A stretch of DNA of 64,000 nucleotides from Candidatus Limnocylindrales bacterium (GTDB taxonomy: Bacteria > Chloroflexota > Limnocylindria > Limnocylindrales > CSP1-4), in contig DASXVG010000141.1 of NCBI GenBank assembly GCA_036504355.1, positions 5,650-69,649 on the forward strand. Reading direction: 5' to 3'. Position numbers and translations under genes: made by a program. The notes beneath the pieces are model-generated. The model had not been told where the DNA came from and did not search any database. It saw nothing but the letters and a program-made list of their open reading frames with translations. Shown here in pieces: positions 8,454 to 33,485 of the stretch; the first letter of the stretch is position 1, and each line of letters opens with the position of its first letter.

Positions 8454-9692
8454 TCAGATCCGTTCGAACGCCATCGCGACCGAGCCGCCGCCGCCCAGGC
8501 ACAGCGTCGCGAGCCCGTACCGGCCGTTGCGACGCGCCAGCTCATGGAGCAGGGTCGCGACGATCCGCGCGCCGCTCGCCCCGATGGGGTGGCCGAGCGC
8601 GATCGCGCCGCCGTTGACGTTGACCTTCAACCAGTCGAAGCCCAGCTCGCGGCCGTCGGCGAGCGTCTGCGCCGCAAACGCCTCGTTGATCTCGATGAGG
8701 TCGAACGCGTCCGGCGAGAGCCCCGTCTTCGCCTCGAGGTTTCGGACACCGGTCACCGGCGCGAGGAACAGCCACCGGGGCGCCACCTCCGCCTGCGCGT
8801 ACCCGACGATCCGGGCCATCGGCGTCAGCCCGTACCGCTCCACGGCGCGCTCCGACACGACGACCGTGGCAGCCGCCCCATCGGTGATGCCCGGCGCGTT
8901 CCCCGCGGTGACGGTCCCGACCGTCGCGTCGCCCCGGTCCGCTCCATCCGGGAGCGGGAACACCGGCGCCAGCCGCGCCAGCGCCTCGATGGTCGTGTCG
9001 CGGCGCGGGCTCTCGTCGACGCTGACCACCGTCTCGCGGCCCTTCGAGTCGCGGATCGTGACCGGCGCCATTTCGGCGTCGAAGCGGCCGCCGTCAGTGG
9101 CGTCGACCGCCCGACGGTGGCTCTCGTACGCCAACGCGTCCTGGTCCTCGCGCGACACGTGGTCATGGATGGCGACGCGCTCGGCGTGGGTGCCCATGTG
9201 ACACCCCTCGATCGCGCACCACAGGCCGTCGAGCACCGCGCTGTCCTCCAGCGTTCCGTTGCCCAGGCGGTAGCCGAAGCGCGCCTTGCGCAGCAGGAAC
9301 GGCGCGTTGTTCATCGACTCCATGCCGCCCGCGACGTAGACCTCGCCGTCGCCGGCACGGATCGACGCCGCGGAGAACATGATCGCCTTGAGCCCCGAGC
9401 CGCAGACACGGTTGATGGTCGTGGCCGAGGTCGTGTCGGCCAGGCCCGCGCCCAGGAGCGCCTGGCGCGCCGGGGCCTGCCCCGCGCCGCCCTGCAGGAC
9501 CTGGCCCATGATGACCTCGTCGACCGGGGCGTCGGACGGGAGGCCGGATCGCTCGACGGCCGCCCGGATCGCGATTGCGCCGAGCTCGGTCGCCGCGACG
9601 GACGCCAGCGCGCCGCCGAACTTGCCGATGGGCGTCCGCGCCGCGCTGACGAGGTAGACGTTGCCGTTGGGTCCGGGTGCCTGCTGCTCCAT
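8454..9692 (-). CDS. Acetyl-CoA C-acyltransferase (thiolase)
   Basis: ARTPIGKFGG, NRVCGSG, GGMESM, EINEAFA, GHPIGASG, CLGGG. Confidence 0.96.
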   Translation of the reverse strand: MEQQAPGPNGNVYLVSAARTPIGKFGGALASVAATELGAIAIRAAVERSGLPSDAPVDEVIMGQVLQGGAGQAPARQALLGAGLADTTSATTINRVCGSGLKAIMFSAASIRAGDGEVYVAGGMESMNNAPFLLRKARFGYRLGNGTLEDSAVLDGLWCAIEGCHMGTHAERVAIHDHVSREDQDALAYESHRRAVDATDGGRFDAEMAPVTIRDSKGRETVVSVDESPRRDTTIEALARLAPVFPLPDGADRGDATVGTVTAGNAPGITDGAAATVVVSERAVERYGLTPMARIVGYAQAEVAPRWLFLAPVTGVRNLEAKTGLSPDAFDLIEINEAFAAQTLADGRELGFDWLKVNVNGGAIALGHPIGASGARIVATLLHELARRNGRYGLATLCLGGGGSVAMAFERI

Positions 9693-9713
9693 CGCCCGAA
9701 TGTACACCCCGCC

Positions 9714-10574
9714 TCAGCGCGGGTAGGCGTGGAACCCCTTGCCCGTCTTCTGGCCAAGGTTGCCGGCCTCCACGAGGTCCACGAGCACACGCGGCGGCGC
9801 GAACTGCGGCTCGCCGATCCCGTCCTCGAGCACGCGCATGATCCCGAGGCACACGTCGAGCCCGATGAAGTCCGCGAGCTCGAGCGGCCCCATCGGGTGG
9901 TTGAGCCCGACCTTTGCGCCCGTGTCGATGTCCTCGGCGGTCCCGAGCCCCTCCTGGTACGCCCGCATCGCCTCGGCCAGGAACGGCATCAGGATCCGGT
10001 TGACGATGAACCCGGGCCGGTCTGCGGAGACGATGACCTGCTTGCCGAGCTGCGCCGCGAGGCCGCGGATCTGCGCCTCGGTGGCGTCGGTCGTCGCCGT
10101 CCCGCGGATGAGCTCGATGAGCGGCATCACGGGGACCGGGCTGAAGAAGTGCATGCCGACGAACCGACCGCGCCGGCCCTCGCCCACCGCGGCCGCGAGC
10201 GTGTCGATGGCGATGGACGACGTGTTCGAGGCGAAGACCGCGTCGGCCGGCGCGATCCCGTCGAGCGCGGTCCACAGCCGGGTCTTGACGTCCACGTCCT
10301 CGAACACGGCCTCCACGACGAGGTCCGCGTCCGCGGCGTCGTCCAGGTCGGCCGTGCCCGTGAGCCGTGCCAGGATTGCCTCCCGCTCTCCGGCGGTCAC
10401 CTTCCCCTTCGCGACGGCGCGCTCCAGGTTGCCCGCGATCCGCGCGATGCCGGCCTCGGCACGCGCGAGGTCGGGCTCGTAGACCACGACCTCCTTGCCG
10501 ATGGCCGCGTGGACCTGGGCGATCCCGTGGCCCATGAGGCCGGCGCCCGCGACGAAGACGCGCTCGATGCTCAC
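9714..10574 (-). CDS. 3-hydroxybutyryl-CoA dehydrogenase
   Basis: GAGLMGHGIA, VEAVFE, SNTSS, GMHFFSPVP, PGFIVNR, HPMGP. Confidence 0.95.
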   Translation of the reverse strand: MSIERVFVAGAGLMGHGIAQVHAAIGKEVVVYEPDLARAEAGIARIAGNLERAVAKGKVTAGEREAILARLTGTADLDDAADADLVVEAVFEDVDVKTRLWTALDGIAPADAVFASNTSSIAIDTLAAAVGEGRRGRFVGMHFFSPVPVMPLIELIRGTATTDATEAQIRGLAAQLGKQVIVSADRPGFIVNRILMPFLAEAMRAYQEGLGTAEDIDTGAKVGLNHPMGPLELADFIGLDVCLGIMRVLEDGIGEPQFAPPRVLVDLVEAGNLGQKTGKGFHAYPR

Positions 10575-29884: not shown

Positions 29885-30892
29885 TCAGCGGCGCGCGATG
29901 ATCGCCGTGGCGCCTGACGGCAGGTCGATCAGCTCGGGCGTCGAGATGCCCGCGGTCTCGAACCAGCCGAGCGCCTCGGTCCGGGACACGAGCCGCGTGC
30001 CCTGGACCAGCTCGTCGAGCTGGATGCCCGCGATCAGCTCGCCGTGACGGCTTCGCAGCTCGTCCGGGTCCGACGGGATGTACCAGTCGAGCGTCACGAG
30101 CCAGCCGCCCTCGGCGATCGCGGCCCACGCCGAGCGCAGCGCGGCCGGCGCGTCGGGCAGCTGGTGGAGCGCGTACTGGAAGTATCCCAGGTCGTACTCG
30201 CCCGGGTGCCCGACCGCCTCGACGGAGCCCTGCTCGATCGTGATTCGCTCGGAGAGCACGGCCGCGGCCACGTTGGCGCGCGCGCGAGCCACCGAATCGG
30301 GCTCGAACTCGACGCCGGTCAGTGTCGTTCCCGGGAACCGGCGCGCCATCGCGATGAGCCAGCGTCCGCCCCCGCAGTGGATGTCGAGGATCCGCGTCCC
30401 GGGCCTGAGGCTCACGACGAGCTCCGGGACCGAGGCGAGCACCTCCTGGAAGAACACCGCGATGTCCTGGACGGTGAGCCGCTCGATCGCCGCGCGGTAG
30501 CGGTCCGGGCGCTCGGTCACCGGCGTGCCCGACCGGAACACCTCGAGCAGGTGGGCATAGTCGAGGCTGCCGACGGCGGCATGGAGGAACTGCCCGCCGA
30601 GATACTCGGATCGGTCGGCCTCGAGGAGCACGATCGCGATGTCGTCCGGGATCGCGATCCGGCCGTCCCCGATCGTCACCAGGTCGTGCGCATCGGCGCC
30701 CCACGCCCAGTCGGACACGAGCCTGGGCTCCGTCCCCGTCCGGCCCGCGAGCTCGGCCGGCGTGAGCCCCTGTGGCCCGGAATCGCGCAACCGCTGGAGC
30801 AGGCCCAGCTCCAGCCCGACGAACACGTACCACGTCCGGTAGAAGCCCCCGAGGCTGGCGACCAGGTCGTCGAATCGGTCGTCTGTGCGCAT
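29885..30892 (-). CDS. Class I SAM-dependent methyltransferase with N-terminal winged helix
   Basis: LTPAELAGRTG helix-turn-helix; ILDIHCGGG; GVEF; ALHQLPD. Confidence 0.88.
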   Translation of the reverse strand: MRTDDRFDDLVASLGGFYRTWYVFVGLELGLLQRLRDSGPQGLTPAELAGRTGTEPRLVSDWAWGADAHDLVTIGDGRIAIPDDIAIVLLEADRSEYLGGQFLHAAVGSLDYAHLLEVFRSGTPVTERPDRYRAAIERLTVQDIAVFFQEVLASVPELVVSLRPGTRILDIHCGGGRWLIAMARRFPGTTLTGVEFEPDSVARARANVAAAVLSERITIEQGSVEAVGHPGEYDLGYFQYALHQLPDAPAALRSAWAAIAEGGWLVTLDWYIPSDPDELRSRHGELIAGIQLDELVQGTRLVSRTEALGWFETAGISTPELIDLPSGATAIIARR

Positions 30893-31004
30893 GGCCGGAT
30901 TGTGACACGCGCCGGACGGCGTCCGGGTGTCCGCGGGGAGGCGATAGGATCGCGATCGGGCGGCGGATGCAACCGGATCCCGCCGCACCGGGTTGTGGTA
31001 CCTG

Positions 31005-31583
31005 ATGGACGACACCGAGCTCACCGAACGCCTCGCGCGCGACCTCGACGAGTCGTTCGAGACGCTCGTCCGCGCGCATGTCGACCGCTGCTACGCGATC
31101 GCCCTGCGCGTCCTCGGGGACCCGCACGACGCCGAGGAGGTCGCCCAGGACGCCCTCGTCCGGGCCTATCGGGCGCTCGCCGGGTACGACGCCCAGCGAA
31201 TCCGCGAGCTGCGACTCCGCGCCTGGCTCGCCACGATCGTCGTGAACCTGTGCCGCAACCGCGTCCGGCGCCACCCGCTCCCGACGACGCCGCTCGGGCC
31301 GCTTGTCGAGGCCGGGCACGAGCCGTCCGCGGACGGGACCACAGACCCGGCCACCCTCGCGCTGGCCGGCGCCGACCGGGAGCGCCTGGCGGCGCTGCTG
31401 GCGACGCTCCCCGACCGCTACCGGATCCCCGTGGTCCTGCGTCACGTCGACGACCTGTCCTACGCCGAGCTCGCCGAGGTCCTCGGCAGGCCCGAGGGCA
31501 CGCTCAAGGCCCAGGTCTCCCGGGGGCTCGCGATGCTCCGCGCCGCACTCCCCGCACACGAGCTCGAGGAGCTGACCGCATGA
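31005..31583 (+). CDS. ECF RNA polymerase sigma factor
   Basis: DAEEVAQDAL, LRAWLATIVVNLCRN, LPDRYR, LSYAELAEVLGRPEGTLKAQVSRG. Confidence 0.93.
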   Translation: MDDTELTERLARDLDESFETLVRAHVDRCYAIALRVLGDPHDAEEVAQDALVRAYRALAGYDAQRIRELRLRAWLATIVVNLCRNRVRRHPLPTTPLGPLVEAGHEPSADGTTDPATLALAGADRERLAALLATLPDRYRIPVVLRHVDDLSYAELAEVLGRPEGTLKAQVSRGLAMLRAALPAHELEELTA

Positions 31584-32386
31584 CCCGGATCCGCCTCACC
31601 GATGACACTCCCGGCGGGCTCGCGCCCGCGCTGCTGGAGCCCGCCCCGGTCCACGTCGCGGAGCACGTCCTCGTCCAGACGGGCCTGGCCGACCGGATGG
31701 CGCCGATGGCGTCCCCGCTGGGCACGCTGTGGGTCGCCTGGAATGGCCGCGGGATCTCCGAGGTCGAGCTCGCCACCGACGGTCCCGAGGCCGCCGCGCG
31801 CCACGAGGCGCGCACCGGTCGCCGCACGACCCTGGCCGAGGCCCTGCCTGCTTCGCTCGCCGCCGCGATCGGCCGCCGGCTCGCCGGCGAGACCCGTGTG
31901 CGCATCCCGCTCGACCTTCGCGACCGCACGACATTCGAGGTCGCGGTCTGGACGAAGGCGCTCGAGATCCCGCGCGGCGAGGTGCGCCCGTACGGCTGGA
32001 TCGCGGCCGAGATCGGCCGGCCGAAGGCCGTCCGTGCCGTCGGCACGGCGCTGGGCCACAACCCGGTGCCGCTCATCGTCCCGTGCCATCGCGTCGTGCG
32101 GACGGACGGAACGATCGGGCAGTACAGCCTCGGCGGGCCGCGCAACAAGCGGACCATCCTCGCCGCCGAGGGCCTCGACCCCGACGGGCTCGAGGCCGCA
32201 GCCCGGCGCGGCGAGCGCCTGTCCGGGTCCACGACCACGAAGATCGTGTGCTGGCCGACGTGCCGCCACGCCCGTCGGGTCCAGGACCGCTACCGCGTCT
32301 CGTTCCGCTCGCTCCGCGAGGCCGGCGCGAAGGGGTATCGACCGTGCAAGGTCTGCCGGCCGACTGCGGTGGACGCCGCCGCCTGA
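31580..32386 (+). CDS. O6-alkylguanine-DNA alkyltransferase fused to a C-terminal Ada Zn-binding domain
   Basis: IPRGEVRPYG, RAVG, NPVPLIVPCHRVV; then STTTKIVCWPTC...GYRPCKVCRP. Confidence 0.92.
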   Translation: MTRIRLTDDTPGGLAPALLEPAPVHVAEHVLVQTGLADRMAPMASPLGTLWVAWNGRGISEVELATDGPEAAARHEARTGRRTTLAEALPASLAAAIGRRLAGETRVRIPLDLRDRTTFEVAVWTKALEIPRGEVRPYGWIAAEIGRPKAVRAVGTALGHNPVPLIVPCHRVVRTDGTIGQYSLGGPRNKRTILAAEGLDPDGLEAAARRGERLSGSTTTKIVCWPTCRHARRVQDRYRVSFRSLREAGAKGYRPCKVCRPTAVDAAA

Positions 32387-32510: not shown

Positions 32511-33485
32511 ATGAGCCGACCGCACGTCAATCCCCTGGCCATCTGGATCGGGATCCTCGTGCTGTGGGTCGTCTGGGGCTCCACGTACCTGGGCATGAAG
32601 CTCGCGATGGACAGCCTGCCGCCGTTCATCATGGGCGCGGCCCGGTTCGTTCCCGCGGGCGTCCTGCTCTCGGTCCTCGTCATCGCGTGGAACCGCGGCC
32701 GCGTGCCGATGCCCACGGGGCGCCAGCTGCTCGATGCCACGATCGTCGGCACGCTGCTGCTCGTCGGCGGGACCGGGCTCGTCGCCTGGGGCGAGCAGAC
32801 GATCGCGACGGGCATCGCGGCCCTGCTCATCGCCCTCGTGCCGATGTGGCTCGCGATCTTCGGGCGCGTCCTGTTCCGCGAGGCGGTCCCCGGCATCGTC
32901 GCCGCGGGGATCGTGGTCGGCCTCGTGGGCGTCGCGATCCTCGCCTGGCCTGCGGGCGGCGTCGGGGACCTCGACCCGGCGGGCCTCGCGGCGCTGCTCG
33001 TGTCCCCGATCCTGTGGTCGCTGGGCACGCTCTACGCCGCGCGACGCGCCGTCCTGCCCGCGCCCGCGCTGCTCGCGAGCGGCTTCGAGATGGTCGCCGC
33101 CGGCCTGGCGTTCGTCGTCCTCGCGTCGATCTCCGGGGAGTGGTCGGGCTTCGACGTCGCCGCCGTGACGGCCACGAGCTGGCTGGGGATCGGGTACCTC
33201 GTCGTCATCGGAAGCCTCGTCGGCTACACGACGTTCGCGTGGCTCATCCAGGTCGCGCCCCTGTCGCGCGTGTCCACGTATGCGTACGTGAACCCGGTGG
33301 TGGCAGTCGTCCTGGGCTCGCTGTTCCTCGCGGAGCCGTTCACCGCGCGGACGATCGTGGCGTCGATCGTGATCGTGGCGGCGGTCGTGCTCATCGTGAC
33401 GGGCCGCGGCCGTGCCGCCGGCTCGGCGGCTGGAGACCGGGAGCCGGTCGCGGTTCCCAGTCCCGCGGCAGCCCCGAGCCGCTGA
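32511..33485 (+). CDS. EamA/DMT family transporter
   Basis: WGSTY, about 10 TM, YAYVNPVVAV. Confidence 0.93.
   Translation: MSRPHVNPLAIWIGILVLWVVWGSTYLGMKLAMDSLPPFIMGAARFVPAGVLLSVLVIAWNRGRVPMPTGRQLLDATIVGTLLLVGGTGLVAWGEQTIATGIAALLIALVPMWLAIFGRVLFREAVPGIVAAGIVVGLVGVAILAWPAGGVGDLDPAGLAALLVSPILWSLGTLYAARRAVLPAPALLASGFEMVAAGLAFVVLASISGEWSGFDVAAVTATSWLGIGYLVVIGSLVGYTTFAWLIQVAPLSRVSTYAYVNPVVAVVLGSLFLAEPFTARTIVASIVIVAAVVLIVTGRGRAAGSAAGDREPVAVPSPAAAPSR

What the first reader, a model, noticed from the sequence alone, without database searches (positions are those of the whole stretch)
31005..32386. ECF sigma coupled to an Ogt with a C-terminal Ada Zn domain: candidate alkylation-sensing sigma switch
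Seen in sequence: the sigma stop overlaps the next start (ATGA). The partner has a short N-terminal leader, an alkyltransferase with intact PCHR, and a C-terminal Ada metal-binding domain with all four Cys (CWPTC...PCKVC). It has no AraC HTH and no separate anti-sigma gene lies nearby. Established: in E. coli Ada the Zn domain is N-terminal, and its methylation activates transcription through AraC. Inference: here the reversed, HTH-less protein may act as an anti-sigma that releases the ECF on self-methylation, giving an alternative adaptive response.
Basis: partly seen in the sequence, partly recalled or inferred. Interest (0 to 1): 0.64.

Follow-up and report, generated by a model that had tools for sequence, protein, structure and literature searches.

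The report
Sigma factor coupled to alkylation-repair sensor
A soil Chloroflexota bacterium pairs a small alternative sigma factor with a single-use DNA-methyl-damage repair protein, and the same promoter also drives two more alkylation-repair genes, so this is probably an untested, Ada-independent way of switching on alkylation repair; the gene pairing itself is already catalogued.

Summary
An ECF sigma gene (31005-31583) overlaps by ATGA a 268-aa protein (31580-32386). That protein has a 44-aa leader, a complete O6-alkylguanine alkyltransferase (PCHR) and a C-terminal Ada-type Cys4 zinc domain. It has no AraC HTH.

- **Conservation:** the pair and the 4-nt overlap hold in 76 of 78 Limnocylindria loci. 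They recur in an Actinomycetota locus and in metagenomic lineages.
- **Promoter:** an invariant ECF-type promoter (GCAAC-N17-GTT) sits 10-11 nt before the sigma ATG, which implies a leaderless mRNA.
- **Predicted regulon:** in the window's own genome this motif followed by a start codon occurs three times only. The sites are this operon, a stand-alone ogt and an AlkA-like glycosylase. Relatives repeat this.
- **Anti-sigma ancestry:** longer homologues carry a genuine zinc anti-sigma domain (zf-HC2, HxxxCxxC) in front of the same Ogt-Ada-Zn body, next to orthologous sigmas with the same promoter. The window's protein keeps only a remnant of that domain.

An ECF-driven adaptive response is therefore well supported in silico. 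The idea that self-methylation releases sigma is plausible but untested, and weaker for this truncated form. The association is already listed as ECF122, mechanism unknown.

The parts
30968..30994 (+). ECF-type promoter: -35 TGCAACC (GCAAC at 30969-30973), 17-nt spacer, -10-like GGTT (GTT at 30992-30994). The sigma ATG follows 10 nt after GTT, which implies a leaderless or near-leaderless transcript.
   Evidence: GCAAC and GTT are invariant in 79 of 79 loci. The ATG lies 36-37 nt after the G of GCAAC in 74 of 79. The same motif occurs in ZAS-form locus L250 and Actinomycetota locus L251. The TSS is inferred, not measured.
31005..31583 (+). ECF sigma factor (192 aa, sigma2 + sigma4 only), ECF122-like by genomic context
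   Evidence: Pfam and NCBIfam. About 16 ECF paralogues in the genome are at most 39% identical to it. Sigmas next to Ogt-type partners elsewhere hit this gene best in 33 of 45 cases.
31580..32386 (+). Partner protein (268 aa): leader + Ogt + Ada-type zinc domain, translationally coupled to sigma (ATGA at 31580-31583)
   Evidence: AF2 model pLDDT 88, pTM 0.80. Foldseek matches OGT, Ada-C and N-Ada.
31580..31711 (+). N-terminal leader (aa 1-44): remnant of an anti-sigma domain (helix 3 end and helix 4 equivalent); the HxxxCxxC part is absent
   Evidence: In alignment A1 it aligns to the region after the ZAS motif of long homologues. hhalign places leader 8-37 against ASD 41-70, P 7.4e-5, probability 62%. 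In the AF2 model residues 1-20 are disordered and 28-33 form a helix.
31712..32173 (+). Complete O6-alkylguanine-DNA alkyltransferase (N-domain plus DNA_binding_1). The acceptor Cys169 lies in PCHR (nt 32081-32092).
   Evidence: Pfam 6.6e-30. Y138, R152, N161, C169, H170, R171 and E197 are invariant in 24 diverse homologues. Foldseek TM 0.74-0.84 to OGT structures.
32219..32362 (+). Ada-type Cys4 zinc domain (aa 214-261). Cys224 (nt 32249-32251) corresponds to Ada Cys38; the other ligands are C228, C256 and C259.
   Evidence: Pfam Ada_Zn_binding 1e-8. 1adn, 1u8b and 1wpk match. All four Cys are invariant in A1. It is the only Ada_Zn domain in the genome.
32511..33485 (+). EamA/DMT transporter 124 nt downstream on the same strand. 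Co-transcription is possible but not shown.
   Evidence: Pfam EamA. It lies downstream in about 70 of 80 loci. No terminator-like site was found between the genes, and no GCAAC-N17-GTT motif lies in the gap.

Best explanation
This is a self-contained alkylation-damage regulon run by an ECF sigma factor. It is a functional analogue of the Ada adaptive response without an AraC-type regulator.

The sigma recognises GCAAC-N17-GTT promoters. These drive three leaderless transcription units: its own operon (sigma plus partner), a stand-alone Ogt, and an AlkA-like 3-methyladenine-type glycosylase.

The partner is made 1:1 with sigma through the ATGA overlap. It most likely holds sigma inactive through what remains of an anti-sigma domain, perhaps with further surfaces. 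It carries two irreversible methyl-acceptor sites: Cys169 (O6-meG and O4-meT) and zinc-bound Cys224 (methylphosphotriesters).

Methyl transfer from damaged DNA would inactivate, destabilise or re-target the partner and free sigma. Newly made unmethylated partner would re-silence sigma once the damage is gone.

Shown here: the domain content, the conservation, the promoter and the predicted regulon. Inferred: sigma recognises that promoter, the partner binds sigma, and methylation releases it.
For: 1. The pair, the ATGA overlap and the promoter are conserved across Limnocylindria. They also occur in an Actinomycetota locus and a ZAS-form locus.

2. In the own genome the motif followed by a start codon 8-10 nt downstream occurs exactly three times: the sigma operon, Ogt2 and the AlkA-like gene.

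3. In 24 same-genus genomes the 40 pattern hits were 22 sigma operons, 9 Ogt2, 4 DMT transporters, 1 AlkA-like gene and 4 others. The reversed-pattern control gave 1 hit in those same-genus genomes (3 across all 41 genomes). A pattern with the spacer one base too long gave 3 unrelated hits.

4. 15 of 26 AlkA-like orthologues carry the motif. The chance expectation is about 0.002 per locus, by my own estimate from base composition.

5. Homologues have zf-HC2 above the Pfam cut-off plus Ogt plus Ada_Zn, and HxxxCxxC is visible in 12 long forms. Their upstream sigmas hit the window's sigma best among about 16 paralogues.

6. The leader is homologous to the post-ZAS part of that domain.

7. All catalytic and zinc residues are invariant.

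8. The genome has no other Ada_Zn domain, so it has no classical Ada. A third Ogt lacks the motif, which is consistent with a constitutive plus inducible pair.

9. In 10 metagenomic loci a PF09859 DNA-repair oxygenase follows the partner.
Against: No experiment exists for any member, and none of the library searches run here found one; ECF122 is listed as 'mechanism unknown'.

The window's partner lacks helices 1-3 and the zinc motif of the anti-sigma domain, which in known class I anti-sigmas provide much of the sigma contact.

The leader match is modest (probability 62%). In the monomer model residues 25-44 pack on the Ogt N-domain and could simply be structural.

The whole neighbourhood (GNAT, SAM-MT, sigma, partner, EamA, GMC) is syntenic in this class, so adjacency alone is weak evidence within Limnocylindria.

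That this sigma reads the GCAAC-N17-GTT promoter is inferred from autoregulation logic only. No RNA data were available.
Confidence: 0.5

Rival explanations
1. The partner is only a bifunctional repair enzyme and first regulon member. In this truncated lineage it no longer controls sigma. Sigma activity would be set by transcription, by turnover, or by an unlinked factor.
For: No Pfam anti-sigma domain is found in P0002. The HxxxCxxC helices are absent. Residues 1-20 are disordered and the rest of the leader packs on the Ogt N-domain. The ECF classification lists ECF122 as lacking an anti-sigma.
Against: A positively autoregulated ECF with no inhibitor would tend to lock on. The ATGA coupling is kept in 76 of 78 loci. 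Leader positions are conserved across phyla in short forms. Relatives of the same sigma lineage use the same body fused to a real anti-sigma domain.
Confidence: 0.27
2. The partner is an Ada-like positive co-factor. Once Cys224 is methylated, the zinc domain gains DNA affinity and helps the ECF holoenzyme at its promoters, so it would act as an activator and not as an inhibitor.
For: The zinc domain is a true N-Ada homologue with the Cys38 equivalent. From established knowledge of E. coli Ada, methylation of Cys38 switches on DNA binding, and methylated Ada contacts sigma70 region 4.
Against: There is no HTH for sequence-specific binding. Some sigma-linked homologues lack the Ada-Zn domain altogether (ZAS+Ogt forms). 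Fusion to an anti-sigma (inhibitory) domain in relatives points to negative control.
Confidence: 0.15
3. The adjacency is an accident of conserved synteny, with no functional link between the sigma and alkylation repair.
For: The whole block of neighbouring genes is syntenic within the class.
Against: The pairing recurs in unrelated contexts and phyla. The promoter is shared with ogt2 and the alkA-like gene at unlinked sites.
Confidence: 0.02

Closest known systems
ECF122 group of the ECF sigma classification (Casas-Pastor et al. 2021, as summarised in PMC8999054)
   Same: An ECF sigma without a recognisable anti-sigma gene, and with a conserved neighbouring 6-O-methylguanine DNA methyltransferase. 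The mechanism is listed as unknown.
   Different: Group membership could not be checked with the ECF Hub models. The cited example is actinobacterial (Cellulomonas), whereas this one is Chloroflexota (Limnocylindria). The source read here, the review PMC8999054, does not describe the promoter, the predicted regulon, the Ada-Zn domain or the ZAS-fused relatives; the original description's group text and supplements were not available.
E. coli Ada (adaptive response regulator; N-Ada 1adn/1u8b, C-Ada 1sfe)
   Same: The same two suicide methyl-acceptor modules: a Cys4 zinc site with the Cys38 equivalent, and an AGT domain with PCHR. The predicted output also parallels the Ada regulon, with its own operon and alkA.
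   Different: The domain order is reversed. There is no AraC/XylS HTH. The transcriptional output would go through a dedicated ECF sigma. The regulatory logic is probably release of inhibition, not activator gain of function.
Zinc-containing anti-sigma factors (ZAS, e.g. RsrA-SigR, ChrR, RslA)
   Same: A cytoplasmic partner encoded directly downstream of, and overlapping, its ECF sigma. Relatives carry the HxxxCxxC zf-HC2 domain. The sensing would be covalent cysteine chemistry.
   Different: The window's protein lacks the ZAS motif and most of the domain. The proposed input is irreversible methyl transfer from DNA lesions, not reversible thiol oxidation.
Stand-alone Ogt/AGT (e.g. M. tuberculosis OGT 4bhb)
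   Same: The full two-domain fold and all catalytic residues.
   Different: It has an extra N-terminal leader and a C-terminal zinc domain, and it is obligatorily coupled to a sigma factor.

Membership tests
ECF sigma factor (group 4 sigma70) | Only regions sigma2 and sigma4, about 190 aa | tested here: met
   Sigma70_r2 at 21-90 and Sigma70_r4_2 at 125-178; TIGR02937 scores 85 bits against a cut-off of 42.9.
ECF122 | Conserved 6-O-methylguanine DNA methyltransferase in the neighbourhood and no canonical anti-sigma gene | tested here: met
   The definition is taken from PMC8999054.
ECF122 | Assignment by the ECF Hub group HMM or phylogeny | not testable with these tools
   No ECF Hub models are held here. 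Indirect evidence only: an Actinomycetota locus (L251) has a sigma 45.5% identical with the same promoter and partner.
Ada / AdaA transcriptional regulators | Cys4 zinc methylphosphotriester-acceptor domain with the Cys38 equivalent | tested here: met
   Ada_Zn_binding 1e-8; CxxxC...CxxC; 1adn 5e-5. It is C-terminal and lacks profile positions 1-17.
Ada / AdaA transcriptional regulators | AraC/XylS-type helix-turn-helix DNA-binding domain | tested here: not met
   No HTH_AraC or HTH_18 hit at E <= 0.1. The AF2 model shows only the Ogt and zinc domains.
O6-alkylguanine-DNA alkyltransferase (Ogt/AGT) | PCHR acceptor motif with the Tyr, Arg-finger, Asn-hinge and Glu network, in a two-domain fold | tested here: met
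   Invariant Y138, R152, N161, C169, H170, R171 and E197. Foldseek gives 4wxd 1e-11 and 1sfe. Activity was not assayed.
Class I / ZAS anti-sigma factor | Four-helix anti-sigma domain with HxxxCxxC (zf-HC2) | tested here: not met
   No zf-HC2 in P0002. Only residues 8-37 align to the post-ZAS part of the domain found in homologues. The homologues P0155, P0164 and P0261 do meet this feature.
Class I / ZAS anti-sigma factor | Encoded directly downstream of, and co-transcribed with, its ECF sigma | tested here: met
   ATGA overlap in 76 of 78 loci.
Class I / ZAS anti-sigma factor | Binds and inhibits its sigma | not testable with these tools
   No complex prediction or experiment was available.

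The most novel reading that the evidence does not exclude
A consumable anti-sigma factor. Each methyl group taken from damaged DNA (O6-meG at Cys169 or a methylphosphotriester at Cys224) would irreversibly use up one inhibitor molecule and free one sigma molecule. The cell would then count alkylation damage stoichiometrically. It would reset automatically as new sigma and partner are made 1:1 from a leaderless, translationally coupled operon. This would be an adaptive response independent of the AraC-type Ada regulator, found in Chloroflexota, Actinomycetota and other soil lineages.
Probability: 0.4. Interest if true: 0.8.

Novelty: new variant of a known kind. Interest (0 to 1): 0.6.

Why it matters
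The Ada response is the textbook case of DNA damage being turned directly into a transcriptional signal, and it is known only with AraC-type regulators. This locus suggests that many uncultured soil bacteria wire the same two suicide acceptor modules to an ECF sigma instead.

If the partner is the inhibitor, it would be a sigma/anti-sigma switch whose input is an irreversible covalent transfer of the lesion itself. It would also explain the 'mechanism unknown' ECF122 group.

The work here makes the idea directly testable. It provides a defined promoter (GCAAC-N17-GTT, leaderless), three predicted target genes, and two cysteines to mutate.

Tried and rejected
- **Single-sequence AF2 model:** the partner model was useless (pLDDT 32). 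It was replaced by a run based on alignment A2.
- **First genome pattern search:** the spacer was one base too long. It found none of the known sites and served only as an accidental spacing control.
- **PWM scan:** a PWM trained on sigma promoters missed the alkA-like site in the own genome. The site was found later through an orthologue in a relative and a core-motif scan.
- **Terminator and sigma70 promoter scan:** nothing was found around the operon.
- **Transcript evidence:** only soil DNA metagenomes hold this sequence, so there is no RNA to map the transcription start.
- **Literature:** the ECF classification paper holds no text on ECF122 in the main body and no supplements. The 2023 alkyltransferase review does not mention sigma or anti-sigma fusions.
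- **Apparent sigma-Ogt fusion proteins:** P0143, P0255 and P0258 were not used as evidence, because a one-base error at the ATGA overlap would create them.
- **Chance adjacency and a separate anti-sigma gene nearby:** both rejected.
- **Complex prediction:** sigma plus partner was not possible with the tools.

Full report
**Observation**

The window encodes an ECF sigma factor at 31005-31583 (192 aa; Sigma70_r2 and Sigma70_r4_2; NCBIfam sigma70-ECF above cut-off). Its TGA stop overlaps the ATG of the next gene as ATGA.

The next gene, at 31580-32386, encodes a 268-aa protein. It begins with a 44-residue leader. A complete O6-alkylguanine alkyltransferase follows (DNA_binding_1, E 6.6e-30, PCHR at 168-171). 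The protein ends with an Ada-type zinc domain (Ada_Zn_binding, E 1e-8, profile positions 18-64 of 65) whose cysteines are C224-x3-C228 and C256-x2-C259. No AraC-type HTH is detected.

The PDB sequence search matches M. tuberculosis OGT, E. coli Ada-C and N-Ada residues 25-76. An AlphaFold2 model built on 76 homologues (pLDDT 88, pTM 0.80) shows both folds. Foldseek returns OGT and Ada-C (E about 1e-11) and N-Ada 1u8b and 1wpk.

The neighbours are a divergent SAM-methyltransferase and a downstream EamA transporter. There is no room for a separate anti-sigma gene.

**Organism and conservation**

Homologue names and contig titles place the window in Chloroflexota, class Limnocylindria, from soil.

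In 79 of 79 related genome loci with upstream DNA, a sigma orthologue lies immediately upstream of the partner. The ATGA overlap is kept in 76 of 78; the two exceptions look like frame errors.

Within this class the whole block GNAT, SAM-MT, sigma, partner, EamA, GMC oxidoreductase is syntenic. Adjacency alone is therefore weak evidence there.

The pairing also recurs in quite different contexts:
- In metagenomic loci, 30 of 30 Ogt+Ada-Zn genes with usable upstream DNA have an ECF sigma in front.
- An Actinomycetota MAG (L251) and a ZAS-form contig (L250) show the same 4-nt overlap.

**Promoter**

Upstream of the sigma gene, GCAAC(C/G) and GTT are invariant in all 79 loci and separated by 17 variable bases. 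The ATG lies exactly 36-37 nt after the G of GCAAC in 74 of 79. In the window these are GCAAC at 30969-30973 and GTT at 30992-30994.

This has the layout of an ECF promoter (-35 GCAAC-like, short -10). It leaves only about 10 nt between the -10 element and the start codon, so the mRNA is probably leaderless. That is an inference; no RNA runs hold this sequence.

L250 and L251 carry the same motif. The promoter specificity therefore travels with the sigma lineage across phyla. This is what is expected of an autoregulated ECF.

**Predicted regulon**

In the window's own 3.4-Mb assembly, the core motif followed 8-10 nt later by a start codon that opens a real ORF occurs exactly three times. The 11 other core-motif matches are mostly inside genes, and none is followed at that distance by such a start codon. 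The three sites are:
- this operon;
- a stand-alone 177-aa Ogt with PCHR, on contig C134;
- an HhH-GPD AlkA-like glycosylase, on contig C44.

A third Ogt on C87 has no motif.

Across 24 genomes of the same genus, a strict pattern gave 40 hits: 22 sigma operons, 9 Ogt2 orthologues, 4 copies of one DMT/EamA transporter, 1 AlkA-like gene and 4 others. The reversed-pattern control gave 1 hit in the same-genus genomes and 3 across all 41 genomes searched. A version with the spacer one base too long gave only three unrelated hits.

Fifteen of 26 AlkA-like orthologues in the genus carry the motif directly in front of their start codon. The chance expectation is about 0.002 per locus, which is my own estimate from base composition.

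In ten more distant metagenomic loci, the gene after the partner is a PF09859 oxygenase. Pfam describes that family as acting on methyl-damaged DNA.

The genome has no other Ada_Zn domain and therefore no classical Ada.

Taken together, this sigma almost certainly heads an alkylation-repair regulon. It resembles E. coli in having one apparently constitutive Ogt plus an inducible set.

**Is the partner an anti-sigma?**

A search of 1.8 billion representative proteins found many homologues of 297-319 aa whose extra 40-60 N-terminal residues precede the same Ogt-Ada-Zn body.
- Three of the ten scanned reach the Pfam cut-off for zf-HC2, the zinc anti-sigma motif.
- Precomputed annotations show the same architecture in further relatives.
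- HxxxCxxC is visible in twelve long forms.
- The sigmas upstream of such ZAS forms hit the window's sigma best, with a clear margin, among the roughly 16 ECF paralogues of this genome.
- L250 has both the overlap and the promoter.

So in relatives of the same sigma lineage, the Ogt-Ada-Zn module is the C-terminal part of a genuine anti-sigma factor.

The window's protein, like most short forms (257-270 aa), lacks the first three helices. Its residues 8-37 align to the end of helix 3 and to helix 4 of the domain (alignment A1; hhalign P 7.4e-5, probability 62%). In the monomer model residues 1-20 are disordered and residues 25-44 pack on the Ogt N-domain.

This is compatible with a remnant sigma-binding element. 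It is equally compatible with a purely structural linker.

**Mechanism proposed**

The steps below are inferred, not shown.
- Sigma and partner are made in equal amounts.
- Unmethylated partner sequesters sigma.
- Methyl transfer to Cys169, to zinc-bound Cys224, or to both inactivates the partner. From established knowledge, alkylated AGTs are destabilised, and methylation of Ada Cys38 changes charge and DNA affinity.
- Sigma is released. It transcribes its own operon, ogt2 and the alkA-like gene.
- Fresh partner then re-silences it.

All acceptor and catalytic residues are invariant across 24 diverse homologues, as expected if both chemistries matter. Some sigma-linked relatives lack the Ada-Zn domain (ZAS+Ogt forms). 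The Ogt domain is therefore the constant sensor candidate and the zinc domain an added input.

**Rivals**

- The partner may now be only a repair enzyme and regulon member, with sigma controlled elsewhere. This fits the missing anti-sigma helices and the ECF122 label 'no anti-sigma'. It leaves a positively autoregulated sigma without a brake, and it leaves the strict coupling unexplained.
- The partner may be an Ada-like positive co-factor after methylation. The absence of an HTH, the existence of Zn-less relatives and the fusion to an inhibitory domain all argue against this.
- Chance synteny is excluded by the cross-phylum recurrence and by the shared promoter at unlinked genes.

**Comparison with what is known, and novelty**

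[quoted passage not shown] The pairing is therefore catalogued.

Searches of the held literature found no experimental work. The 2023 alkyltransferase review has no mention of sigma or anti-sigma fusions.

Earlier notes of this scan describe the same kind of locus in at least eight other genomes, with the same tentative reading. I re-tested their central claim, that relatives carry a real anti-sigma domain, and confirmed it here.

- the invariant leaderless promoter;
- a three-gene predicted regulon including ogt2 and an alkA-like gene;
- the finding that this lineage carries a truncated, ZAS-less version.

I rate it a new variant of a known kind: an ECF sigma/anti-sigma switch with a new, covalent, damage-derived input. 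Interest is moderate to high, and the mechanism is unproven.

Noticed in passing
L153, L158, L162, L163, L170, L171, L173-L175 (metagenome loci): A second, more distant sigma lineage (30-35% identical) is also paired with Ogt+Ada-Zn partners. It has a different conserved upstream motif, TTCCACCC-N~17-CGTATA. It is usually followed by a PF09859 DNA-repair oxygenase.
   Followed up: partly
L107, L109, L219, L223 (same-genus genomes G008, G006, G014, G016): One DMT/EamA transporter family (about 310 aa) carries a closely similar leaderless promoter, CGCAACC-N-GGTAGGGTTC-N9-ATG. The closest homologue in the window's genome is only 36% identical (C50), and its upstream region was not examined.
   Followed up: partly
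window 32511-33485: A different EamA transporter sits 124 nt downstream of the partner in about 70 of 80 loci, with no terminator-like site between them. Co-transcription with the sigma operon is possible but untested.
   Followed up: partly
P0143, P0255, P0258 (representative proteins): Predicted proteins of 435-554 aa combine sigma regions with the Ogt domain. These may be real sigma-partner fusions. They may equally be one-base frame errors at the ATGA overlap.
   Followed up: no
genomes G025-G040 (same order, family f2, about 1.1 Mb): The small-genome sister family gave only scattered pattern matches (5 hits in 16 genomes, against 1 control hit), and none of the five lies upstream of a sigma-like ORF. 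The system may be absent from that streamlined lineage, but a direct protein search was not run there.
   Followed up: no
G000 contig C87 about 9439-10000 (-), outside the window: A third Ogt (about 190 aa, PCHR) has no GCAAC-N17-GTT motif. It is a candidate constitutive alkyltransferase.
   Followed up: partly
L082 5542-6273 (G000 C134): A DUF2461 protein is encoded 430 nt downstream of Ogt2 on the same strand. Whether it belongs to that transcription unit is unknown.
   Followed up: no
window 29885-30892 (-): A divergent SAM-dependent methyltransferase starts 112 nt from the sigma ATG. It is syntenic in about 65 of 80 loci. Any link between a SAM methyltransferase and alkylation stress is speculative.
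   Followed up: no
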